A DNA stretch of 10,205 nt from a virus (lineage: Duplodnaviria > Heunggongvirae > Uroviricota > Caudoviricetes), in IMG/VR virus record IMGVR_UViG_2917886563_000001; one strand, given 5' to 3'. Every line of letters begins with the position of its first letter. The stretch's first letter is position 1. Positions 628 to 10,205 of this stretch are shown here, one piece after another. The notes beneath the pieces were generated by a model that did not search any database, was not told where the DNA came from, and saw only the letters and a program-made list of their open reading frames with translations. Made by a program: the position numbers and the translations under genes.

Positions 628-2046
628 ATGCCGATTCAGCAACTTCCGCTTATGAAAGGTGTCGGCAAAGACTTTCGAAACGCTGACTATATCGACTATT
701 TGCCAGTGAATATGCTGGCTACACCCAAAGAAATCCTCAACAGCAGCGGATATCTTCGCTCATTCCCTGGCATTGCCAAACGCTCTGATGTGAACGGTGT
801 ATCTCGCGGCGTCGAGTACAACATGGCGCAGAATGCTGTTTATCGCGTGTGTGGTGGCAAGTTGTATAAGGGCGAAAGTGAAGTCGGCGATGTTGTCGGA
901 AGTGGTCGTGTATCAATGGCGCATGGTCGAACATCTCAGGCTGTAGGCGTTAATGGTCAACTGGTCGAGTCTCGCTATGATGGCACGGTTAAAACCGTCT
1001 CAAACTGGCCTACAGACAGCGGATTCACGCAGTATGAGTTAGGCTCAGTCCGCGACATTACACGCTTACGTGGGCGTTATGCGTGGTCAAAAGACGGCAC
1101 TGATTCATGGTTTATCACTGACCTTGAAGACGAATCACATCCTGACCGATACAGCGCACAATATCGTGCCGAGTCGCAGCCTGACGGCATCATCGGCATC
1201 GGAACATGGCGAGACTTCATCGTCTGCTTTGGCTCATCGACGATTGAATATTTCTCCCTGACGGGCGCAACCACTGTTGGTGCCGCTTTGTATGTCGCCC
1301 AGCCATCGTTGATGGTGCAGAAAGGAATCGCCGGAACCTACTGCAAAACGCCGTTTGCTGATTCGTATGCGTTCATCAGCAATCCGGCAACAGGTGCGCC
1401 GTCTGTTTACATCATCGGATCCGGTCAGGTGTCACCAATCGCCAGCGCGAGCATTGAGAAAATCCTCCGCTCCTACACTGCTGATGAACTGGCTGATGGC
1501 GTGATGGAATCGTTGCGCTTTGATGCTCATGAGTTGCTGATTATCCACCTTCCGCGCCATGTTCTCGTGTACGACGCATCTTCAAGCGCCAATGGTCCGC
1601 AATGGTGTGTGTTGAAAACTGGCTTGTATGACGATGTGTACCGCGCTATCGACTTCATTTACGAAGGTAATCAGATAACGTGCGGCGATAAGCTGGAATC
1701 TGTTACCGGAAAATTGCAATTCGACATCAGCAGCCAGTATGGGCTTCAACAGGAACACCTGCTGTTTACTCCACTCTTCAAAGCGGATAACGCCAGAGTG
1801 TTCGACCTTGAGGTTGAATCGTCAACTGGCGTTGCGCAGTACGCTGACCGCCTGTTCCTCTCTGCTACAACTGACGGCATCAATTACGGGCGTGAGCAGA
1901 TGATTGAGCAGAATGAACCGTTCGTTTACGACAAACGCGTTTTGTGGAAACGAGTAGGGCGCGTCAGGAAAAATATTGGCTTCAAACTGCGAGTTATCAC
2001 TAAGTCACCTGTCACTTTGTCTGGTTGCCAGGTAAGGATTGAGTAA
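628..2046 (+). CDS. Tail hub protein, P22 gp10-like
   Basis: The 472-aa ORF has the length and position of P22 gp10, between the gp4-like and gp26-like genes. An SD-like GGGAG lies 7 nt upstream of the ATG, which directly follows the TAA of the preceding gene. The assignment rests on synteny and length, not sequence recall. Confidence 0.75.
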
Positions 2047-2747
2047 TGGCTGATTCAAATCTCAACACCCCTGTTATTGTGCAGGCGACGCGGCTCGACA
2101 CGTCAATTCTTCCGCGCGACATCTTCTCTCAGTCATACCTGCTGTATGTTATCGCACAGGGTACAGACGTTGGTAACGTAGCAAACAAAGCTAACGAAGC
2201 AGGTCATGGAGCTTATGAAGCGCAGGTCAGGAATGAACAGCAGGACGATGAACTTGCAGACCATGAACTACGAATTAAACAACTGCGCATTGAAGTTGAT
2301 GGTCATGAAGTAAGAATTACCGGAAATACAGCGGCAATTGCTGATTTAGGAGTGAGAATAACCACAGTTGAAGGTGAAGTTCTCAACATTCAATCTGAAA
2401 TTTCATCTCTTGATGGAAGAGTGACATCTGTTGAAAACGATGTTGGTAATCTCAGTTTGGACTACGTTTCCAAGACTGAAGTAAGTCAACAATCACTATC
2501 ATCGCCTCTCAATGTGACAACATCATACTCAGTTGGAGGGGTAAAGGTGGTCGGTGCAAGGCAAAACGGTTGGACTGCCGGCACAGGAACCCCGCTAACA
2601 AGCGCGTTTACTGCAAATCAACCGTATCCTCTTTCAACAACCTACGTTCGGGCAGAAGTAGATGATATAGCCACTGGTTTGATTCAGGCTAGACAACGAA
2701 TACTTGCCCTTGAAAAAGCACTGCGAACACATGGTTTAATAAACTAA
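2046..2747 (+). CDS. Tail needle (cell-envelope-penetrating trimeric coiled-coil plug), P22 gp26-like
   Basis: The 233-aa ORF has the same length as P22 gp26. The N-terminus [43 protein letters not shown] and the C-terminus [13 protein letters not shown] closely match recalled P22 gp26 ([43 protein letters not shown] ... EDALRAHGLID). Heptad-like periodicity is visible in the central region. The start overlaps the upstream stop as TAATG, preceded by AAGGA. Confidence 0.9.
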
Positions 2748-3866: not shown

Positions 3867-5261
3867 TTGGCTACATGGCAACAGGTTGGTAATTCAGGCG
3901 CTCTTCTTGCCGGGTTGGGCGGCATGAACTCCAACGCTCCAGGAGCAAGTGATGCAGACGCCACGCTTGCATACATTCGACAGAATAACGAGATGGAGCG
4001 TTCAGGACGTAATAACGTTGGCTTGCGGGCTTTGCAGGGCATTTCATCTGTCATGGATATGTATAAGCAGATGGATCAGCAGAAGCGACAGCAAGAGTTT
4101 CAGCAGGCTTATGCTGATGCATATACATCTGGTGACCGCGATGCCATGCGAAAACTGGCATCACAGTATCCTGAGCAGTTCGACGTTGTAAGAAACGGCA
4201 TGAAATTTGTCGATGAAGACCAGCGTACTACTGTCGGTACACTGGCAGCAAGTGCCAGACTCGCAGGTTCATCTCCAGAAGCCATGATGTCATGGCTGCA
4301 GAACAACGCATCTGAGCTTTCTCGCGCCGGAGTAGACCCTCTGGATGTGGCGAAAATGTATCAGCAAAATCCACAAGGTTTCACAGAGTTTGTTGATCAC
4401 CTTGGAATGGCTGCACTTGGACCAGAACAATATTTTCAGGCACAAGACAGAATCGTTGGTCGTGAGATTGACCGTGGAAAACTTGCAGAGGCAATCCGCA
4501 GCAATCAGGCTGGCGAAGCACTAACTGCTCGTGGTCAGAACATCACTATGCGCGGTCAGGACTTATCTGCGTCTACTGCGCGACGCGGTCAGGATTTGGC
4601 AATGCAGCGAGCGTCAACAAGAGGAACCGCTGGGAATGATGAGCGTACAGTTCAGTTATCAGATGGCAGAACTGTAACGGTAGGCGGGAAGCTTCACGGC
4701 GCAGGGGCTAATGCGTTCTACGAAGGCATCGACAACGAGGGGAATATGGTTCGCGTTCCTGCCAGTTCAATCGCAGCGCCTGCAACATCGTCTGCATCAG
4801 CACAAAACTATGCCATGAAGAAGGATATCGACGCGATCGCAAATGCAGACGCTTCTGCTCTCGATTTTATGACAGGAATGACCGGCGGTGCAGGTAACCC
4901 GGCAATTGGTGCTGATGTTCGCAGCCGATTAACAGGAAAAGAGCAGCGTCAGTTATATAACTCAGCACAACGTATTCAGGGAAGAATGCAGAATCAGGGC
5001 GTGGCGGCAGCAAGGGACATGGGCGCCAGTGGTATTAACACCGTTGCAGAAGCGAAGATGTATTTTCAGGGGATGCCGCAGGTTGACTACTCAAGCCCGG
5101 AGGCTATGCAGCAGTCGATTCGTGAGATTCAGGAATACACCAACAATTACAACCAACAATATAACGTTAATGTTGGTAAATCTCAGCGGCAGCAATCTCA
5201 ACCTGCACAGGTATCACAGCCTGCAGCCAGCAGTAACTTTTCTTCACTATGGGGTGATTAA
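3867..5261 (+). CDS. Ejection (E) protein, P22 gp20-like; apparent TTG start
   Basis: The 464-aa ORF has no in-frame ATG near its 5' end. The first codon is TTG at 3867-3869, with GGAGG at 3856-3860 six nt upstream. Length and position match P22 gp20 (about 470 aa). Confidence 0.7.
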
Positions 5262-7564
5262 TGGCTAAAGCATGGAAAGATGTTATCGCCTCTCCACAGT
5301 ATCAGGCGTTAGCACCAGAACAAAAAGCGCAGGCTCAGGAGCAATACTTCAATGAAGTCGTGGCCCCGCAAGCCGGAGAAAATGCAGAGCAGGCTAAGCA
5401 AGCTTTCTATGCTGCCTATCCATTGCCATCTGTGCAGACAGAACAGCAGGAAGTAAGGCAATCTCCTGATGCCATTCAGCAAGACAAATCACTTATGCAG
5501 CGTGCAGGAGAATGGCTAACTGGTGGGCAAAGCGTAGGACAAATTGCCGAGCAGGCGGTAAGAGGATTTGTAAATATTCCTTTTGACGTTCTTCAGGGGG
5601 GGGCGAGTCTCATTAATGCTGCATCTCAGAGTTTTGATGGACCAAAGATTCTTGATGAAGTATATAGACCAGTTAACCGGCCAACGGATCCGTATGCGCA
5701 AGCTGGAGAGTCAATAGGCGGTTATCTTGTTCCTGGAGCAGGTGTAGCTGGAAACATGGTCATTGGTTCTCTCGCTGACGCGGCGAATCAACAGGGGGAT
5801 TTTGCCAAAAATACCGCTATTAATGCCGGACTTAACATTGCTACGCATGGCCTGATAAATGGCGTTACCCGTGGTGTTCGTGGCGCATCAAATATAATTA
5901 GTGGTAATAAAACATCTACACAGAGAGCGACCCCTGCGCCAACAGAAACATCACCATTCTCCGGTGATGCCACTGCAGCAACAAATCCTGCGGTTCATGC
6001 CGCAGAGGCAAGAGTAGCACAAGGTGTACCAATGACGCCTGCGACGAGCAACCCAGAGGAAGTCGTTCGCACAGTTGCTGCACAAAAAAGGCCAAATCTC
6101 GCTTCATCGCTTGATGAATTAGATATCAATCCTCAGGCTGAAGTTCTGGAGTCTGCTGAAAAGCTTAATGTTGATTCATTACTCCCTTCACACTTTTCCG
6201 GGAACGAGCAATACAAGGCTGTTGAGCAAGCAATCAAGTCCCGTGCGGGTTCTGCTCTACAGGTGCAGGAAAATGAAGCAATCAGGCAGCTAGCACAGAG
6301 CGCGGGGAAGATAATTGATCGCGCTTCCGGTGCAAAAGATGCTCTTGGTATGAGCGACAAGTTTATTGATACGGTCAATGGAAGAATGTCTGCCCTGATG
6401 AAACGAAGCGACCAGCTTTATCGCAATGTTGAAAAGGCGATGCCTGCAGGTGCAAAAATTGATGCGCCATCAACAAGGTCAATGCTCAAACAGGTGGCAG
6501 AAGATCTTGGCGGGATGAAAAACCTTGACCCTATTGAAAAGAGAGTCTTTCAGGCAGTTAATCCAGGCAAGAACGGCGCATTAACTTATGCAAATCTCAA
6601 TAAGCAACGACGACTTGTTGGTGATGCACTTCATAAGAATTCTGGACCATATAAAGATGCTGATCGCGCTGCCTTATCGAGGCTTTACGGTTCGCTCGCC
6701 GATGATCAAAAGACGGCGCTGTCAGGGACAATTGCATTACGTGATTTTGAAGTTGCTCAGAGGCTTGTTCAGATGCGAAAAAGTATGGAAGAGCAAATGA
6801 TTAATCTTACTGGCAGAACGCTGAACGGTGATGTTTCTCGCAAAGCAACGACAGCACTACAGGCAATGTCGAAAGGCGATGCCAAAGGATTCCGTGAATT
6901 GATGCAAAACACGCCGTCCAGGAAGCTAAGAACCGAGCTACTGGGAACAGGTCTTCGGGATATGCTTTCGAACGGAAAACGTGGTGCTGATTTTAATCCT
7001 GCAGGGTTTGCTGACTGGTATCAAAACATGTTAGCAAACGGACAAATGCGAAATCTTGCCCGACATTTACCAAAAGAGACTATGTCAGGTCTGAACGATG
7101 TATATAAGGTCGCAAAGGCTATCAAAGACGCAAAATCTTACGAGATAACCACAGGAAGACTAAACGAGTTCGTCAAACGGTTTAATCGTGTCACTGTGGC
7201 AAATGAATTTGTTGCTAACCATGCCCAACGCATTGGCACTGCGGTTGGTTCAACGGTGTCAGGACCGTTCAGTGCAGTAGGTGCTGTTGCTGGGTCAGAA
7301 ATTGGGGCAAAAGTCGCCAGCAAAATCAGGGCGATGGGCGGCGCTGCATCAATGGAATCTGCAGAAAAGCTAATTAGCTCACCAGAATTCCAGAAAGCAG
7401 CAAGGCTGGCAGTAAAACAAGCACCAGAAAGCATCGTTGATACAACTGTAAGACGCTCTTCTGCTTGGCGCTCGTTTTACAACTCACTTCCAGAATCAGA
7501 TAAGAAAACCATATCAAGGCTAGGCATCATGTACTGGATGAACAGTGATGACAACCAGAAGTAA
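5261..7564 (+). CDS. Ejection (E) protein, P22 gp16-like (larger than the P22 prototype)
   Basis: The 767-aa ORF is coupled to the preceding gene by a TAATG overlap at 5259-5263. It is largely Ala/Gln/Lys-rich and apparently helical, and it is the last gene of the ejection-protein block before the mnt/tailspike region, as in P22. Confidence 0.7.
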
Positions 7565-7581
7565 CGGAAAGCCACGGATGG

Positions 7582-7845
7582 TTAGTTGCAGTCTTTTTTA
7601 TATAAATCTCTGAGCGTATCAAAGACAATTTTCTTTACCATATCGGATTGTTGGTCTGCAATACGCTCAGCATCGTCATTGTAAAAAGATGCAGTGCTTT
7701 GTTTAGCCAGTGATTCTTCAATCGCTGCAATTATCTCTGAGTTCAGTGACCTGTTATTCATCTTCGCACGCTGCTTAATTTTGGTGTGGAGTTCATGCGC
7801 AAGTCTCAAATGAAACTGCGCTTCGTCGTATTTGCTGTACATCAT
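7582..7845 (-). CDS. mnt: Mnt-like ribbon-helix-helix (Arc/MetJ family) repressor
   Basis: The translation MMYSKYDEAQFHLRLAHELHTKIKQRAKMNNRSLNSEIIAAIEESLAKQSTASFYNDDAERIADQQSDMVKKIVFDTLRDLYKK aligns along its full length with recalled P22 Mnt (FNFRMPMEVREKLKFRAEANGRSMNSELLQIVQDALSK...NDAERLADEQSELVKKMVFDTLKDLYKK). I favour the start at the Met pair at 7845/7842 because GGTGAGG lies 5 nt upstream on the minus strand. The ORF track's longer form, starting at 7875, has no SD and adds 10 residues absent from P22 Mnt. Confidence 0.85.
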   Translation of the reverse strand: MMYSKYDEAQFHLRLAHELHTKIKQRAKMNNRSLNSEIIAAIEESLAKQSTASFYNDDAERIADQQSDMVKKIVFDTLRDLYKKDCN

Positions 7846-7963
7846 TGATGCCTCACCAGTTGGGTGGAACGGCATCGTAACCTACTGGATAAATACTCAA
7901 TAGTACCATTTAGGTATTCAATAATATCAAAATTGAATCATATCCTTCCTCTGGAGTTACAAA
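7846..7963. promoter_or_regulatory. Divergent intergenic control region between mnt (-) and tailspike (+); candidate Pmnt and operator
   Basis: This 118-bp AT-rich spacer separates divergent start codons. It contains short dyads: AATAC...GTATT (7892-7918) and TTCAAT-9nt-ATTGAA (7917-7937). The tailspike SD, GGAG, is at 7953-7956. No strong sigma70 consensus could be pinned down by eye. In P22 the Mnt operator overlaps Pant, but the operator sequence here is not the P22 one. Confidence 0.35.
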
Positions 7964-9889
7964 ATGTCAGATATCGCCGCAAATGTTGTGGTAAGCATGC
8001 CTAGCCAATTGTTCACTATGGCTCGTTCTTTTAAAACTGTATCAAATGGCAAAATCTTTATTGGTAAAATAGATGAAGACCCAGTAAATCCTGAAAACCA
8101 GATTCAGGTTTATATTGAGAATGAAGACGGATCTTACGTTCCTGTTGCGCAGCCTATCGTGATAAATACCGCTGGATATCCGGTATACAACGGACAAATT
8201 GCGAAGTTCGTAACTGTGCAAGGCCATTCTATGGCTGTGTACGATGCGTATGGGGTACAACAGTTTTATTTTCCGAATGTGCTTAAATACGACCCGGACC
8301 AATTTAAAGGTCAATTGCTAAGCGATAATCACTCTCTTGGTGATTCATTAGTTATGCACAATCCACAATTCACCGGGTCAACATCACTCCCTTTAGCCAA
8401 TAAATTGACTGTTGATGTGCGAACATTATCAGATTATGGATTTAAGGCTGATAACAGCGGAGCACAAAACAAGGCTGCATTCCAGAAAGCCATTGATGAT
8501 GCTACGTTGCCAACGGAGATTGTTATCCCTGAAGGGACGTTCATTATTGACCCTGGTATAACGATTAAAAATATTGTCACCATGATACGAGGTGCTGGCG
8601 CATATCAGTCCAGAATCTTCTCTACTGGAACAAACGAACCAATCATAACCCAGCAAAGCGACCCAATTACTTTCTGTGAGCTTAGAGACTTTGGCTTAGA
8701 TGGTAATAATTACTCAGCTAATGGGATAAATTTTCCTAACGCCAACCATATCAAAATTGAAAATGTAGATGTAACCGGCACTACAAGTAACGCTATCTTA
8801 ATTAATGGTTACTCAATAGATATAATTGGCTGCCGTTTGCTAACAAACACAGGAAATGCGCTTAACATTGGTGGGGTATGTAATAATCTTAACATCATCA
8901 ATAACCGTATTTATGGTAATGGTGCTGGAGGCATCTTGCTTACTCCGGCGTATGCCGAGGGCGGTATGAGCGTCCGTGTAAACGGAAATGATATTGAGCA
9001 AAATAAGTTATACGGGTTTATGTCATTCGGGGTTAAGGGACTTAATTTGGATGATAACTATTGGGAGCGTAACGGCGAAAGTGGATATCCATATGGTACT
9101 CCGGAATTTATAAACATTAAAGCCGATATTCATCTCATTGCTAATGAGTTTACATTAATACCTGACGTAACAAAGATTAATGATACAGTTTCGATTCGAG
9201 GAAACCAGCAAACTGCAATCGGTTACGCCAGTTCCCTCCCTAATCAGGATGGTTTTATATTCACAAACTATGCTAAAAACCTGACAATCGAAAATAATCA
9301 ATTATTGGATGCATCTAAAGTAAACAATTTATTGGTAATGTACCGTAATAATCTTTCGTCTAAAGTTACAGATAGATTGTATCTGGCTAACAATACGGTC
9401 AATTCGATAGGGTATGTTGGAAGTTATGATCCAGCGACACAAAACCCTGATACTGCTCATTTAATAGATATTGCGAACAGAGAGTTAACTGCTAACTATC
9501 TTGATCGAAATATGTTGCTTTGGAACGCGGCATCTGGAACGACAGGAGCATTGATAAAAACTCAAAACATTTATGCTGGTAATTATTCATTCTTAGTTAC
9601 GGCAGGAGATAGAGTTTGGGGACGAACGATAGACCTCAACAAATCACCAGAACTAAAAGGGAAATTTGTATGGTTTGGTGCGTGGGTAAATGACCAGGGA
9701 GCAGCGTCAAAACTTATGTTTATAGTTAATGGTGCAGGACAAACAGACTCTACAGCACCTTTAGCTGGGAATGGGAAATGGCGCTATGTTAGTTGTGGTG
9801 TGTATATAGACGCAACGGCTACAGCTATAAATGTTGGCATAAGAAATTATGGTTCAGGAAATGTACTCATAAACTCACCGTTGATGTAG
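7964..9889 (+). CDS. Tailspike protein: P22-family head-binding N-terminal domain plus divergent right-handed beta-helix receptor-binding domain (probable O-antigen or capsule depolymerase)
   Basis: Residues 1-114 ([57 protein letters not shown]...[15 protein letters not shown]...[10 protein letters not shown]) match the recalled P22 gp9 N-terminus and resemble Sf6/HK620-type N-termini. The rest is rich in Asn/Gly/Ile beta-helix rungs (e.g. [29 protein letters not shown]) and does not resemble the P22 endorhamnosidase body. Confidence 0.9.
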
Positions 9890-10205
9890 CCCCCAGAAAC
9901 ACCGGACAGTAGCTGTATCTCCAGATAAGAGATAGGCTTGAATATATGTCTAACACTAACGCCAATTTTGAGATGACCGGGATCCTGTTAGGGCAAGAAG
10001 TCCGTAAACGTAAAACTCCTCAGGAGAAAATCGCCATTATCCAGCAGACGATGGAGCCGGGTATGAATGTCTCCCATGTCGCCCGCCTGCATGGTATCCA
10101 GCCCAGCCTGCTGTTTAAATGGAAGAAGCATATCAGGAAGGCAGCCTCACCGCCGTTGCGGCCGGAGAGGAATGTCGTTCCTGCTTCTGAGCTTACAGCT
10201 GCTCT
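9886..10205 (+). mobile_element. Left end of an IS3-family (IS2-group) insertion sequence, truncated by the window edge
   Basis: The orfA-like ORF begins at 9946. The sequence just after the tailspike stop (TAGCCCCCAGAAACACC...ATCTCCAGA) resembles the recalled IS2 left terminus (..GGCCCCCTGAATCTCCAGACAACC..). The exact boundary is uncertain to within about 10 bp. Confidence 0.55.
9946..10205 (+). CDS. IS3-family (IS2-like) transposase OrfA, HTH DNA-binding subunit; 3' end outside window
   Basis: The translation MSNTNANFEMTGILLGQEVRKRKTPQEKIAIIQQTMEPGMNVSHVARLHGIQPSLLFKWKK...VVPASELTAA resembles recalled IS2 InsC (..[69 protein letters not shown]..). The ORF is absent from the supplied ORF track only because it has no stop inside the window. 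Confidence 0.75.
   Translation, partial: MSNTNANFEMTGILLGQEVRKRKTPQEKIAIIQQTMEPGMNVSHVARLHGIQPSLLFKWKKHIRKAASPPLRPERNVVPASELTAA

What the first reader, a model, noticed from the sequence alone, without database searches (positions are those of the whole stretch)
7964..9889. Mosaic tailspike: conserved head-binding domain fused at about nt 8305 to an unrelated beta-helix receptor-binding module
Conservation with P22 gp9 ends after YDPDQF (residue 114, nt about 8305). Downstream is a different Asn/Gly-rich beta-helix with an apparent C-terminal beta-sandwich. The 641-aa length is unlike P22 (667) and, as I recall them, unlike Sf6 and HK620. This module sets host surface-polysaccharide specificity, so it defines the host serotype, and the enzymatic specificity is not assignable from sequence alone.
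Basis: partly seen in the sequence, partly recalled or inferred. Interest (0 to 1): 0.55.

Follow-up and report, generated by a model that had tools for sequence, protein, structure and literature searches.

The report
IS-truncated P22-type mosaic tailspike gene
This is an ordinary modular phage tailspike gene in a P22-like prophage, carrying an already published O26-type receptor-binding module, and its odd 641-residue length arises because an insertion sequence has cut off the last 68 codons.

Summary

1. The module is not an orphan. It is 86% identical, colinear from residue 1, to the 707-aa Lederbergvirus prophage tailspike of E. coli O26. That protein represents a published "O26 RBP subtype", and its C-terminal part conferred an O26-specific reporter signal on an engineered CBA120 phage. 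The same module also sits behind other N-terminal anchors.

2. 641 aa is not the native length. Identity to the intact 707-aa gene of Escherichia sp. E1V33 ends at nt 9879-9881. From 9882 the sequence is the left end of a 1336-bp IS3-family element, which supplies codons 640-641 and the stop. The lost 68 residues are a conserved terminal element, so the gene is probably inactive.

Verdict: textbook tailspike mosaicism in a known subtype, interrupted by an IS. Low novelty and low interest.

The parts
7964..8305 (+). Head-binding (particle-anchor) domain of the tailspike, residues 1-114
   Evidence: Pfam PF09008 covers residues 1-113, E 3.8e-64. P22 gp9 and Sf6 gp14 chains align over 1-115, E 1e-44 to 1e-63. 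DNA similarity to Sf101, Sf6, IME10 and epsilon34 ends at 8295-8309.
8306..8413 (+). Linker or neck, residues 115-150: the module-exchange zone and the most divergent stretch against the O26 allele
   Evidence: Only 62-74% nt identity to the O26 gene in this stretch. Low pLDDT in the model. Proteins with other anchors become alignable from about here (sequences).
8414..9523 (+). Right-handed parallel beta-helix body, residues about 151-520: the presumed O-antigen binding and cleaving part
9551..9881 (+). C-terminal beta-sandwich, residues about 530-639, cut within its last strand (native strand 634-643)
   Evidence: Strands at 530-537, 540-545, 551-557, 567-576, 582-588, 606-615, 621-630 and 634-643 in the model. 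Foldseek match to CBM22 modules, TMt about 0.5. 90-99% nt identity to the O26 gene. Identity to the intact E1V33 gene ends at 9879, or at 9881 allowing one mismatch at 9880.
9867..9881 (.). Predicted target-site duplication of the IS insertion (left copy); inferred, because the right junction is outside the window
   Evidence: Four complete copies of the same IS are each flanked by 15-16 bp direct repeats that abut TGATG... on the left.
9882..10205 (+). Left end of a 1336-bp IS3-family insertion sequence. It contains the terminal inverted repeat TGATGTAGCCCCCAGAAACACCGGACAG and the 5' part of orfA (9946 to beyond 10205). It supplies the last two bases of codon 640, codon 641 and the stop of the tailspike ORF.
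   Evidence: 96-98% identity to 'IS3 family transposase' elements in 178 E. coli genomes. Aligned to a complete copy in L003. TG...CA ends defined on L003, L006, L007 and L008. The orfA fragment hits HTH_Tnp_1 PF01527, E 4.7e-13.
9887..9889 (+). TAG stop codon of the 641-aa ORF, lying inside the IS terminal repeat
   Evidence: Sequence read. The intact genes read through here for 68 more codons.
7582..7875 (-). Mnt/Arc-type repressor gene immediately upstream (context: P22-like immI region)
   Evidence: Pfam Repressor_Mnt E 7e-15 and Arc E 8e-13.

Best explanation
The gene is the tailspike (gp9 equivalent) of a P22-like (Lederbergvirus-type) prophage of an unclassified Escherichia strain. The exact product is RefSeq WP_240731156.1 from Escherichia sp. 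E4736.

Native architecture (707 aa):
- an N-terminal head-binding domain that docks the trimer onto the tail;
- a short neck;
- a right-handed beta-helix that binds, and most likely cleaves, the host O-antigen;
- a beta-sandwich;
- a small conserved C-terminal element.

The receptor-binding part is an allele of the published E. coli O26 receptor-binding-protein subtype. This module moves by recombination between P22-like, epsilon15-like (Uetakevirus) and T7-fibre-type anchors.

In this copy a 1336-bp IS3-family element inserted after nt 9881. It replaces native residues 640-707 with Leu-Met-stop. It cuts the last sandwich strand and removes the terminal element. The product therefore most likely cannot form a stable trimer, and the prophage cannot make infectious particles.

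Shown: domain boundaries, homologies, the IS junction and the fold prediction. Inferred: O-antigen (probably O26-like) specificity, hydrolase chemistry and loss of function.
For: - ORF and domains. The P22 and Sf6 alignments stop at residue 115. DNA mosaic boundary at 8295-8309.
- P22-like neighbourhood (gp4, gp10, needle, gp14, gp7, gp20, gp16-position gene, mnt).
- Full-length colinear homologues: O26:H11 11368 tailspike WP_001280420.1, 707 aa, 86% identity over 1-641 with no gaps. P0001, 707 aa, 100% identity over the module. Escherichia sp. E1V33, 98.7% nt identity.
- IS junction: identity to E1V33 ends at 9879. From 9882 the sequence is 96-98% identical to E. coli IS3-family copies. Element ends and length come from four complete copies. 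An independent draft contig carries the same junction (L004, 100% identical over 5417-9901).
- Module shuffling: the same module sits behind PF18668 (873 aa in E. coli O26; 724 aa in Citrobacter) and PF03906 anchors.
- O26 link: all 105 complete E. coli genomes carrying the module have it at 80-90% identity. Three of the listed records are named O26 (O26:H11 11368, RM10386, RM8426). Serotypes of the others were not checked here.
- Literature: the RM10386 prophage RBP is the O26 subtype representative (PMC10408124). Its C-terminal region gave an O26-specific luciferase signal when fused to CBA120 TSP3 (PMC12737597).
- O-antigen-modification genes follow the intact gene: gtrA, gtrB and a 506-aa ORF in E1V33, and an acyltransferase in O26.
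- Importance of the lost tail: near-invariant P664, G667, W669, E673, G683, P685, W688 and G694. The lost 68 aa are recognisable in tail-fibre genes of phage N7 and of Bacillus SPO1-like, Dickeya and Enterobacter phages.
Against: - No experiment shows that the 639+2-residue product is inactive. The beta-helix and most of the sandwich are retained, so a partly folded or weakly active protein is not excluded.
- The right-hand IS junction is outside the window. A simple insertion cannot be told from an IS-associated deletion or rearrangement.
- O26 specificity is an extrapolation. The helix body (residues about 91-420) is only 62-80% identical in DNA to the O26 allele, apart from one 90% stretch at residues 181-210.
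- The O-type of the host strain is unknown, and no complete E. coli genome carries this allele at more than 90% identity.
- The chimeric CBA120 phage with the O26 module gave a reporter signal but no plaques.
- The catalytic residues are only guessed from conservation.
Confidence: 0.85

Rival explanations
1. The 641-aa protein is a naturally shorter, functional tailspike variant, and its stop codon is part of the phage gene.
For: The ORF is uninterrupted for 641 codons. RefSeq names the product 'phage tailspike protein' without a pseudogene flag. The differences from E1V33 are mostly synonymous, 25 nt against 4 aa.
Against: The stop codon and the two preceding codons lie in sequence 96-98% identical to IS3-family elements found at unrelated E. 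coli loci. All full-length relatives read on for 68 more conserved residues. Identity to the intact E1V33 gene breaks exactly at the IS end.
Confidence: 0.05
2. The tailspike-IS junction is an assembly artefact: a chimeric join at a repeated IS, with the gene intact in the real genome.
For: IS copies are classic sites of misassembly. The draft contig L004 ends only 20 nt into the IS.
Against: L004 itself reads from unique tailspike sequence into the first 20 nt of the IS, so reads span the junction. The look-up lists this contig for two samples. The flank is consistent with the way this IS inserts, directly abutting TGATG.
Confidence: 0.05
3. The module is an O26-subtype relative by descent but has shifted specificity to a different O-antigen of cryptic-clade Escherichia. 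The IS then hit a spike with a receptor not yet described.
For: The helix body, where tailspikes bind sugar, is the divergent part: 62-80% nt identity and about 62 of the 88 aa differences within residues 101-400. The C-terminal 160 residues are 90-99% identical. This allele is absent from 5,426 complete E. coli genomes at more than 90% identity and is found in unclassified Escherichia. The downstream O-antigen-modification module differs: gtr-type in E1V33 against an acyltransferase in O26.
Against: 84-86% amino-acid identity is far above the 30% threshold used for a subtype. The invariant acidic residues are kept. No data on the host O-type.
Confidence: 0.25

Closest known systems
Lederbergvirus prophage tailspike of E. 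coli O26 (RM10386_Prophage_RBP, NZ_CP028126.1; identical-type WP_001280420.1 in O26:H11 11368): the 'O26 RBP subtype' of PMC10408124
   Same: Same architecture from residue 1. 86% aa identity over 641 residues with no gaps and about 81% nt identity. Same position in a P22-like prophage after mnt/arc.
   Different: The window copy lacks residues 640-707 because of an IS. The helix body is markedly more divergent than the C-terminal part. The host is an unclassified Escherichia, not E. coli O26.
P22 gp9, Sf6 gp14 and HK620 tailspikes (solved structures)
   Same: Head-binding domain is about 80-90% identical to Sf6 and about 70-75% identical to P22 by eye from the alignments. Same overall plan: anchor, right-handed beta-helix, C-terminal domain.
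Escherichia phage N7 tail protein AYR02211 (709 aa)
   Same: The only sequenced phage in the collection with the same module: 55% aa identity over the whole module. Same head-binding anchor. The terminal 68 aa are 71% identical.
   Different: Much more divergent, about 67% nt identity over 7962-9319. Its receptor was not looked up here.
873-aa PF18668-anchored prophage spikes of E. coli O26. These are probably the form the paper calls the Uetakevirus E2865 prophage RBP, but that identity was not tested here.
   Same: Receptor-binding module 83-84% identical to the window module.
   Different: An unrelated N-terminal anchor of about 290 residues, so a different virion platform.
IS3-family insertion sequences (IS2-like two-ORF elements with programmed frameshift)
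   Same: TG...CA ends, 1336 bp, an orfA with HTH_Tnp_1, and PGAP annotation 'IS3 family transposase, programmed frameshift'.
   Different: The complete copies examined carry 15-16 bp target duplications rather than the 3-5 bp I recall for this family (the expectation is from memory).

Membership tests
P22-like (Lederbergvirus) tailspike, gp9 type | N-terminal head-binding domain (Pfam PF09008) | tested here: met
   Residues 1-113 match the full profile, E 3.8e-64, 214 bits. Aligns to P22 and Sf6 chains over 1-115.
P22-like (Lederbergvirus) tailspike, gp9 type | Located at the end of the P22-type late operon, after the ejection-protein genes and the mnt/arc region | tested here: met
   P22_Tail-4, Phage_stabilise, DUF2824, P22_gp7, Inj_translocase and Mnt/Arc lie upstream in order. 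84-94% nt matches to Sf101, APC_JM3.2, Sf6 and IME10.
P22-like (Lederbergvirus) tailspike, gp9 type | Right-handed parallel beta-helix receptor-binding body | tested here: met
P22-like (Lederbergvirus) tailspike, gp9 type | Complete C-terminal region, which in P22 is needed for trimer assembly (established knowledge, not tested here for this family) | tested here: not met
   Native residues 640-707 are absent, replaced by two IS-encoded residues and a stop.
P22 gp9 endorhamnosidase receptor-binding module | Sequence homology to P22 gp9 residues beyond about 115 | tested here: not met
   All P22 chain alignments end at residue 114-115. There is no further stretch at E <= 1.
E. coli O26 RBP subtype (PMC10408124) | At least 30% aa identity and at least 60% coverage of the receptor-binding domain against the subtype representative (criterion quoted) | tested here: met
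   86% identity over 1-641 to the O26:H11 11368 allele. 83-86% over the module to P0002-P0043. The representative RM10386 is my hit H20.
E. coli O26 RBP subtype (PMC10408124) | Binding or cleavage specific for O26 O-antigen | not testable with these tools
   Only indirect evidence. The O26 allele's C-terminal region gave an O26-specific reporter signal on CBA120. The window allele is divergent in the helix body and is truncated.
IS3 family insertion sequence | Terminal inverted repeats ending 5'-TG...CA-3', and two overlapping ORFs joined by a programmed frameshift | tested here: met
   Ends TGATG...GATCA in four complete copies. PGAP lists 'IS3 family transposase, programmed frameshift'. The window holds only the left repeat and the orfA 5' part (HTH_Tnp_1).
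IS3 family insertion sequence | Short (3-5 bp) target-site duplication (from memory of ISfinder descriptions) | tested here: not met
   15-16 bp direct repeats flank all four complete copies examined. The right junction of the window copy is not available.

The most novel reading that the evidence does not exclude
The divergent helix body of this allele (62-80% nt identity to the O26 allele, next to a 90-99% identical C-terminal part) reflects a recent switch to an O-antigen of cryptic-clade Escherichia that is not O26. In that case the intact 707-aa relatives (E1V33, E4694, P0001) would define a new receptor specificity within the O26 subtype. Separately, the interrupting element would be an IS3-family member that makes unusually long 15-16 bp target duplications.
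Probability: 0.2. Interest if true: 0.3.

Novelty: new member of a known kind. Interest (0 to 1): 0.15.

Why it matters
It matters little beyond annotation.
- The exact 641-aa product is in RefSeq as an ordinary 'phage tailspike protein'. It should be flagged as IS-disrupted. Taken at face value, its length and its apparent C-terminus would mislead domain or host-range predictions.
- The intact alleles from cryptic-clade Escherichia add a divergent member to the O26 receptor-binding subtype. That subtype is being used to engineer STEC-detecting phages, so they could help map which helix residues set O26 specificity.
- The modular exchange at the YDPDQF junction is textbook.

Tried and rejected
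- Sequence search of the whole protein and of the last 197 residues of the intact form against PDB chains. Only the head-binding domain matched. A weak Sf6 extension reached residue 256, and the C-terminal part found nothing credible.
- Profile search of PDB with the 16-sequence alignment. It hit only PF18668-type N-terminal anchors, because most aligned members carry that anchor. It gave no information on the module.
- Promoter and terminator consensus scan of 7500-10205. Counts were at or below shuffle expectation, with no terminator after the ORF, as expected if the stop is not native.
- The genome-contig scan returned a single locus, E1V33. That was enough for the junction but not for a survey of hosts or O-types.
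- I first considered that the IS began at 9868-9880, because some BLAST hits extended that far. I rejected this after aligning four complete copies. The extensions are target flanks, and the element starts at TGATG, 9882.
- Supplement search for WP_001280420 and for the phage N7 accession in PMC10408124 found neither. One paper search term was too short and errored.

Full report
**What is at the coordinates.** The window carries an uninterrupted ORF at 7964-9889 on the + strand, 641 codons. Pfam places a complete Head_binding domain (PF09008) on residues 1-113 (E 3.8e-64) and a Beta_helix match (PF13229) on residues 253-374. Against solved structures, every P22 gp9 chain aligns only to residues 1-115 and ends at ...[10 protein letters not shown]|K. 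Sf6 gp14 aligns strongly to the same part and only weakly on to residue 256.

At the DNA level, similarity to Sf101, IME10, Sf6 and epsilon34 stops between window 8295 and 8309. The remaining 527 residues are enriched in Asn (11.8%) and Gly (10.1%) compared with the other proteins of the window.

**Context.** The upstream genes are the P22-type late genes: tail accessory factor gp4, gp10, a needle gene, DUF2824/gp14, gp7, gp20, a 767-aa gene in the gp16 position, and a divergently transcribed Mnt/Arc repressor. They show 84-94% DNA matches to Sf101, APC_JM3.2, Sf6 and IME10. GC content falls from about 50% to 35-43% across 7350-9750. This is a Lederbergvirus-type prophage.

**The module is not an orphan.**
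- A search of complete E. coli genomes found 105 genomes with a colinear, full-length match at about 81% nt identity. It is annotated 'phage tailspike protein', and three listed records are named O26.
- The O26:H11 11368 protein (WP_001280420.1, 707 aa) is 86% identical to the window protein over residues 1-641 without a gap.
- The large protein database returned a 707-aa protein (P0001) that is 100% identical over the module. It also returned many 873-aa E. coli O26 proteins and 719-724-aa proteins (one from Citrobacter sedlakii) with the same module (79-84%) behind a PF18668 anchor, and an 805-aa protein with a T7-fibre-type anchor (PF03906).
- Among sequenced phages only Escherichia phage N7 carries it, at 55% aa identity.
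- P0001 differs from the window protein at ten positions, all within residues 5-98, and at none in 99-639. This is direct evidence that the domain junction is an exchange point.

**Literature.** The Lederbergvirus prophage RBP of E. coli O26 RM10386 (NZ_CP028126.1, my hit H20) and a Uetakevirus prophage RBP (E2865) are the representatives of an 'O26 RBP subtype' defined by horizontal transfer (PMC10408124). The C-terminal region of the RM10386 spike, fused to CBA120 TSP3, gave an O26-specific luciferase signal, although no plaques (PMC12737597).

**The 641-aa length is an artefact of an insertion sequence.**
- The relatives are 707-709 aa, and the DNA match to them ends ten bases before the stop codon.
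- The window is identical to the intact gene of Escherichia sp. E1V33 (L005:9656-11779) up to nt 9879, or 9881 allowing one mismatch at 9880, and then diverges completely. The same is true against the O26 and N7 genes.
- From 9882 onward the window is 96-98% identical to elements annotated 'IS3 family transposase' at unrelated sites in 178 E. coli genomes.
- Four complete copies (L003, L006, L007, L008) define a 1336-bp element with ends TGATGTAGCCCCC...GGGTCAAGATCA.
- Native residues therefore run from 1 to 639. Codons 640-641 (ttg atg) and the TAG at 9887-9889 come from the IS terminal repeat.
- The window ends inside orfA of the IS (HTH_Tnp_1), so the right junction and any 3' remnant of the gene cannot be seen.
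- An independent draft contig (GCA_005781225.1, L004) is 100% identical to window 5417-9901 and reads 20 nt into the IS. This argues against a chimeric join.
- The product is RefSeq WP_240731156.1 from Escherichia sp. E4736. Intact 707-aa forms occur in Escherichia sp. E1V33 and E4694 and in E. coli.

**Fold and what was lost.** An AlphaFold2 model of the intact P0001, built with 16 homologues, is confident over residues 151-707 (pLDDT mostly 80-95). It is poor over 1-150, because the alignment mixed different anchors.
- It shows a long run of short strands typical of a beta-helix (about 180-520), an eight-stranded sandwich (about 530-643) and a small terminal element (644-707).
- Foldseek lists tailspikes and depolymerases, plus a CBM22-like match for the sandwich.
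- The IS cut falls inside the last sandwich strand (634-643) and removes the terminal element.
- That element has near-invariant residues (P664, G667, W669, E673, G683, P685, W688, G694). A stretch of about 60 nt within it is identical in DNA between phage N7 and the O26 prophage, whose genes are otherwise far more divergent. It is also recognisable in tail-fibre genes of Bacillus SPO1-like, Dickeya and Enterobacter phages.
- From established work on P22 gp9, the C-terminal region is needed for trimer assembly. By analogy I infer that the truncated product does not assemble. This is an inference, not a result.

**Mechanism.** Intact, the protein would dock by its head-binding domain on the P22-type tail and use its beta-helix to bind and probably cleave O-antigen, as other tailspikes do. 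Candidate catalytic carboxylates, from invariance only, are E345, E368, E372 and D388, in the DIEQNK and NYWERNGE motifs. O-antigen as receptor is supported by the O-antigen-modification genes that follow the intact gene: gtrA, gtrB and a 506-aa ORF in E1V33, and an acyltransferase in O26. Specificity is probably O26 or something close.

The helix body (aa 91-420) is only 62-80% identical in DNA to the O26 allele, apart from one 90% stretch at residues 181-210. Residues 481-638 are 90-99% identical. A shifted specificity therefore cannot be excluded. The 25 nt differences from E1V33 give only 4 aa changes, and the other late genes are open. This fits a recent inactivation.

**Comparison and novelty.** The gene meets the tests for a P22-type tailspike, except that its C-terminus is incomplete. 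It meets the published sequence criterion for the O26 subtype. It is not related in its receptor-binding part to P22 gp9. Modular exchange at this junction is textbook, the subtype is published, and the exact protein is already in RefSeq. What this analysis adds is that the copy is IS-disrupted and that its length and C-terminus are not native. Interest is low.

Noticed in passing
window 9882-10205; L003, L006, L007, L008: The interrupting IS3-family element (1336 bp, TG...CA ends) is flanked in all four complete E. coli copies examined by 15-16 bp direct target repeats (for example CATAGCAAACGTACAT and TTTGCCGAACCAACGC). That is much longer than the 3-5 bp I recall for IS3-family elements. 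Three of five left flanks start with CATA.
   Followed up: partly
window about 10142 and about 10188 (orfA of the IS): Compared with the E. coli H1 copy, the window's orfA has a 1-bp deletion (AGC-ATATC) and a 1-bp insertion (GGAATGTC) 47 nt apart. About 15 codons are therefore read out of frame and the frame is then restored (KHIRKAASPPLRPERN against QYQEGSLTAVAAGEE). This could be a degenerate IS copy or sequencing errors.
   Followed up: no
window 5261-7564 (+), 767 aa: The gene in the gp16 (ejection protein) position has no Pfam hit. It is the one late gene that is not conserved with the otherwise 97-99% identical E1V33 prophage, which has a 665-aa ORF there. Identity breaks at 5441 and resumes at 7574, so this is a second mosaic segment in the window.
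   Followed up: partly
L001:10797-11124 and L002:7440-7788 (3' ends of the intact tailspike genes): A stretch of about 60 nt encoding GERVINSAPASGQPKAWTCNI is identical in DNA between phage N7 and the O26 prophage, although the N7 and O26 protein modules are only about 55% and 86% identical to the window's. It is a possible recombination hotspot at the 3' end of the module.
   Followed up: no
P0001 residues 640-707 (absent from the window): The terminal 68-residue element is detectable (29-50% identity, E 1e-4 to 3e-11) at the ends of tail-fibre or 'pectate lyase' genes of Bacillus SPO1-like, Dickeya and Enterobacter phages. It appears to be a widely shared C-terminal cap with no Pfam family and no solved structure found here.
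   Followed up: partly
L005:11817-15962 against L001:11195-13739: Downstream of the intact tailspike, the E1V33 prophage carries gtrA, gtrB and a 506-aa ORF (a glucosylation-type O-antigen modification module). The O26 prophage carries an Acyl_transf_3 acyltransferase at the same place. Both are followed by an integrase, which in the O26 genome lies next to a tRNA-Arg gene and yfdC.
   Followed up: partly
window 7350-9750: GC content drops to 35-43% across the mnt-tailspike region, against about 47-55% in the upstream late genes. This is consistent with a module of different origin.
   Followed up: no
window 7964-9889: RefSeq lists the IS-truncated 641-aa product (WP_240731156.1, Escherichia sp. 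E4736) as a normal 'phage tailspike protein' rather than as a disrupted gene.
   Followed up: yes
window 2046-2747 (+), 233 aa: The ORF in the tail-needle position has no Pfam hit at E <= 0.001. Related phages annotate this position as a tail needle or needle knob protein.
   Followed up: no
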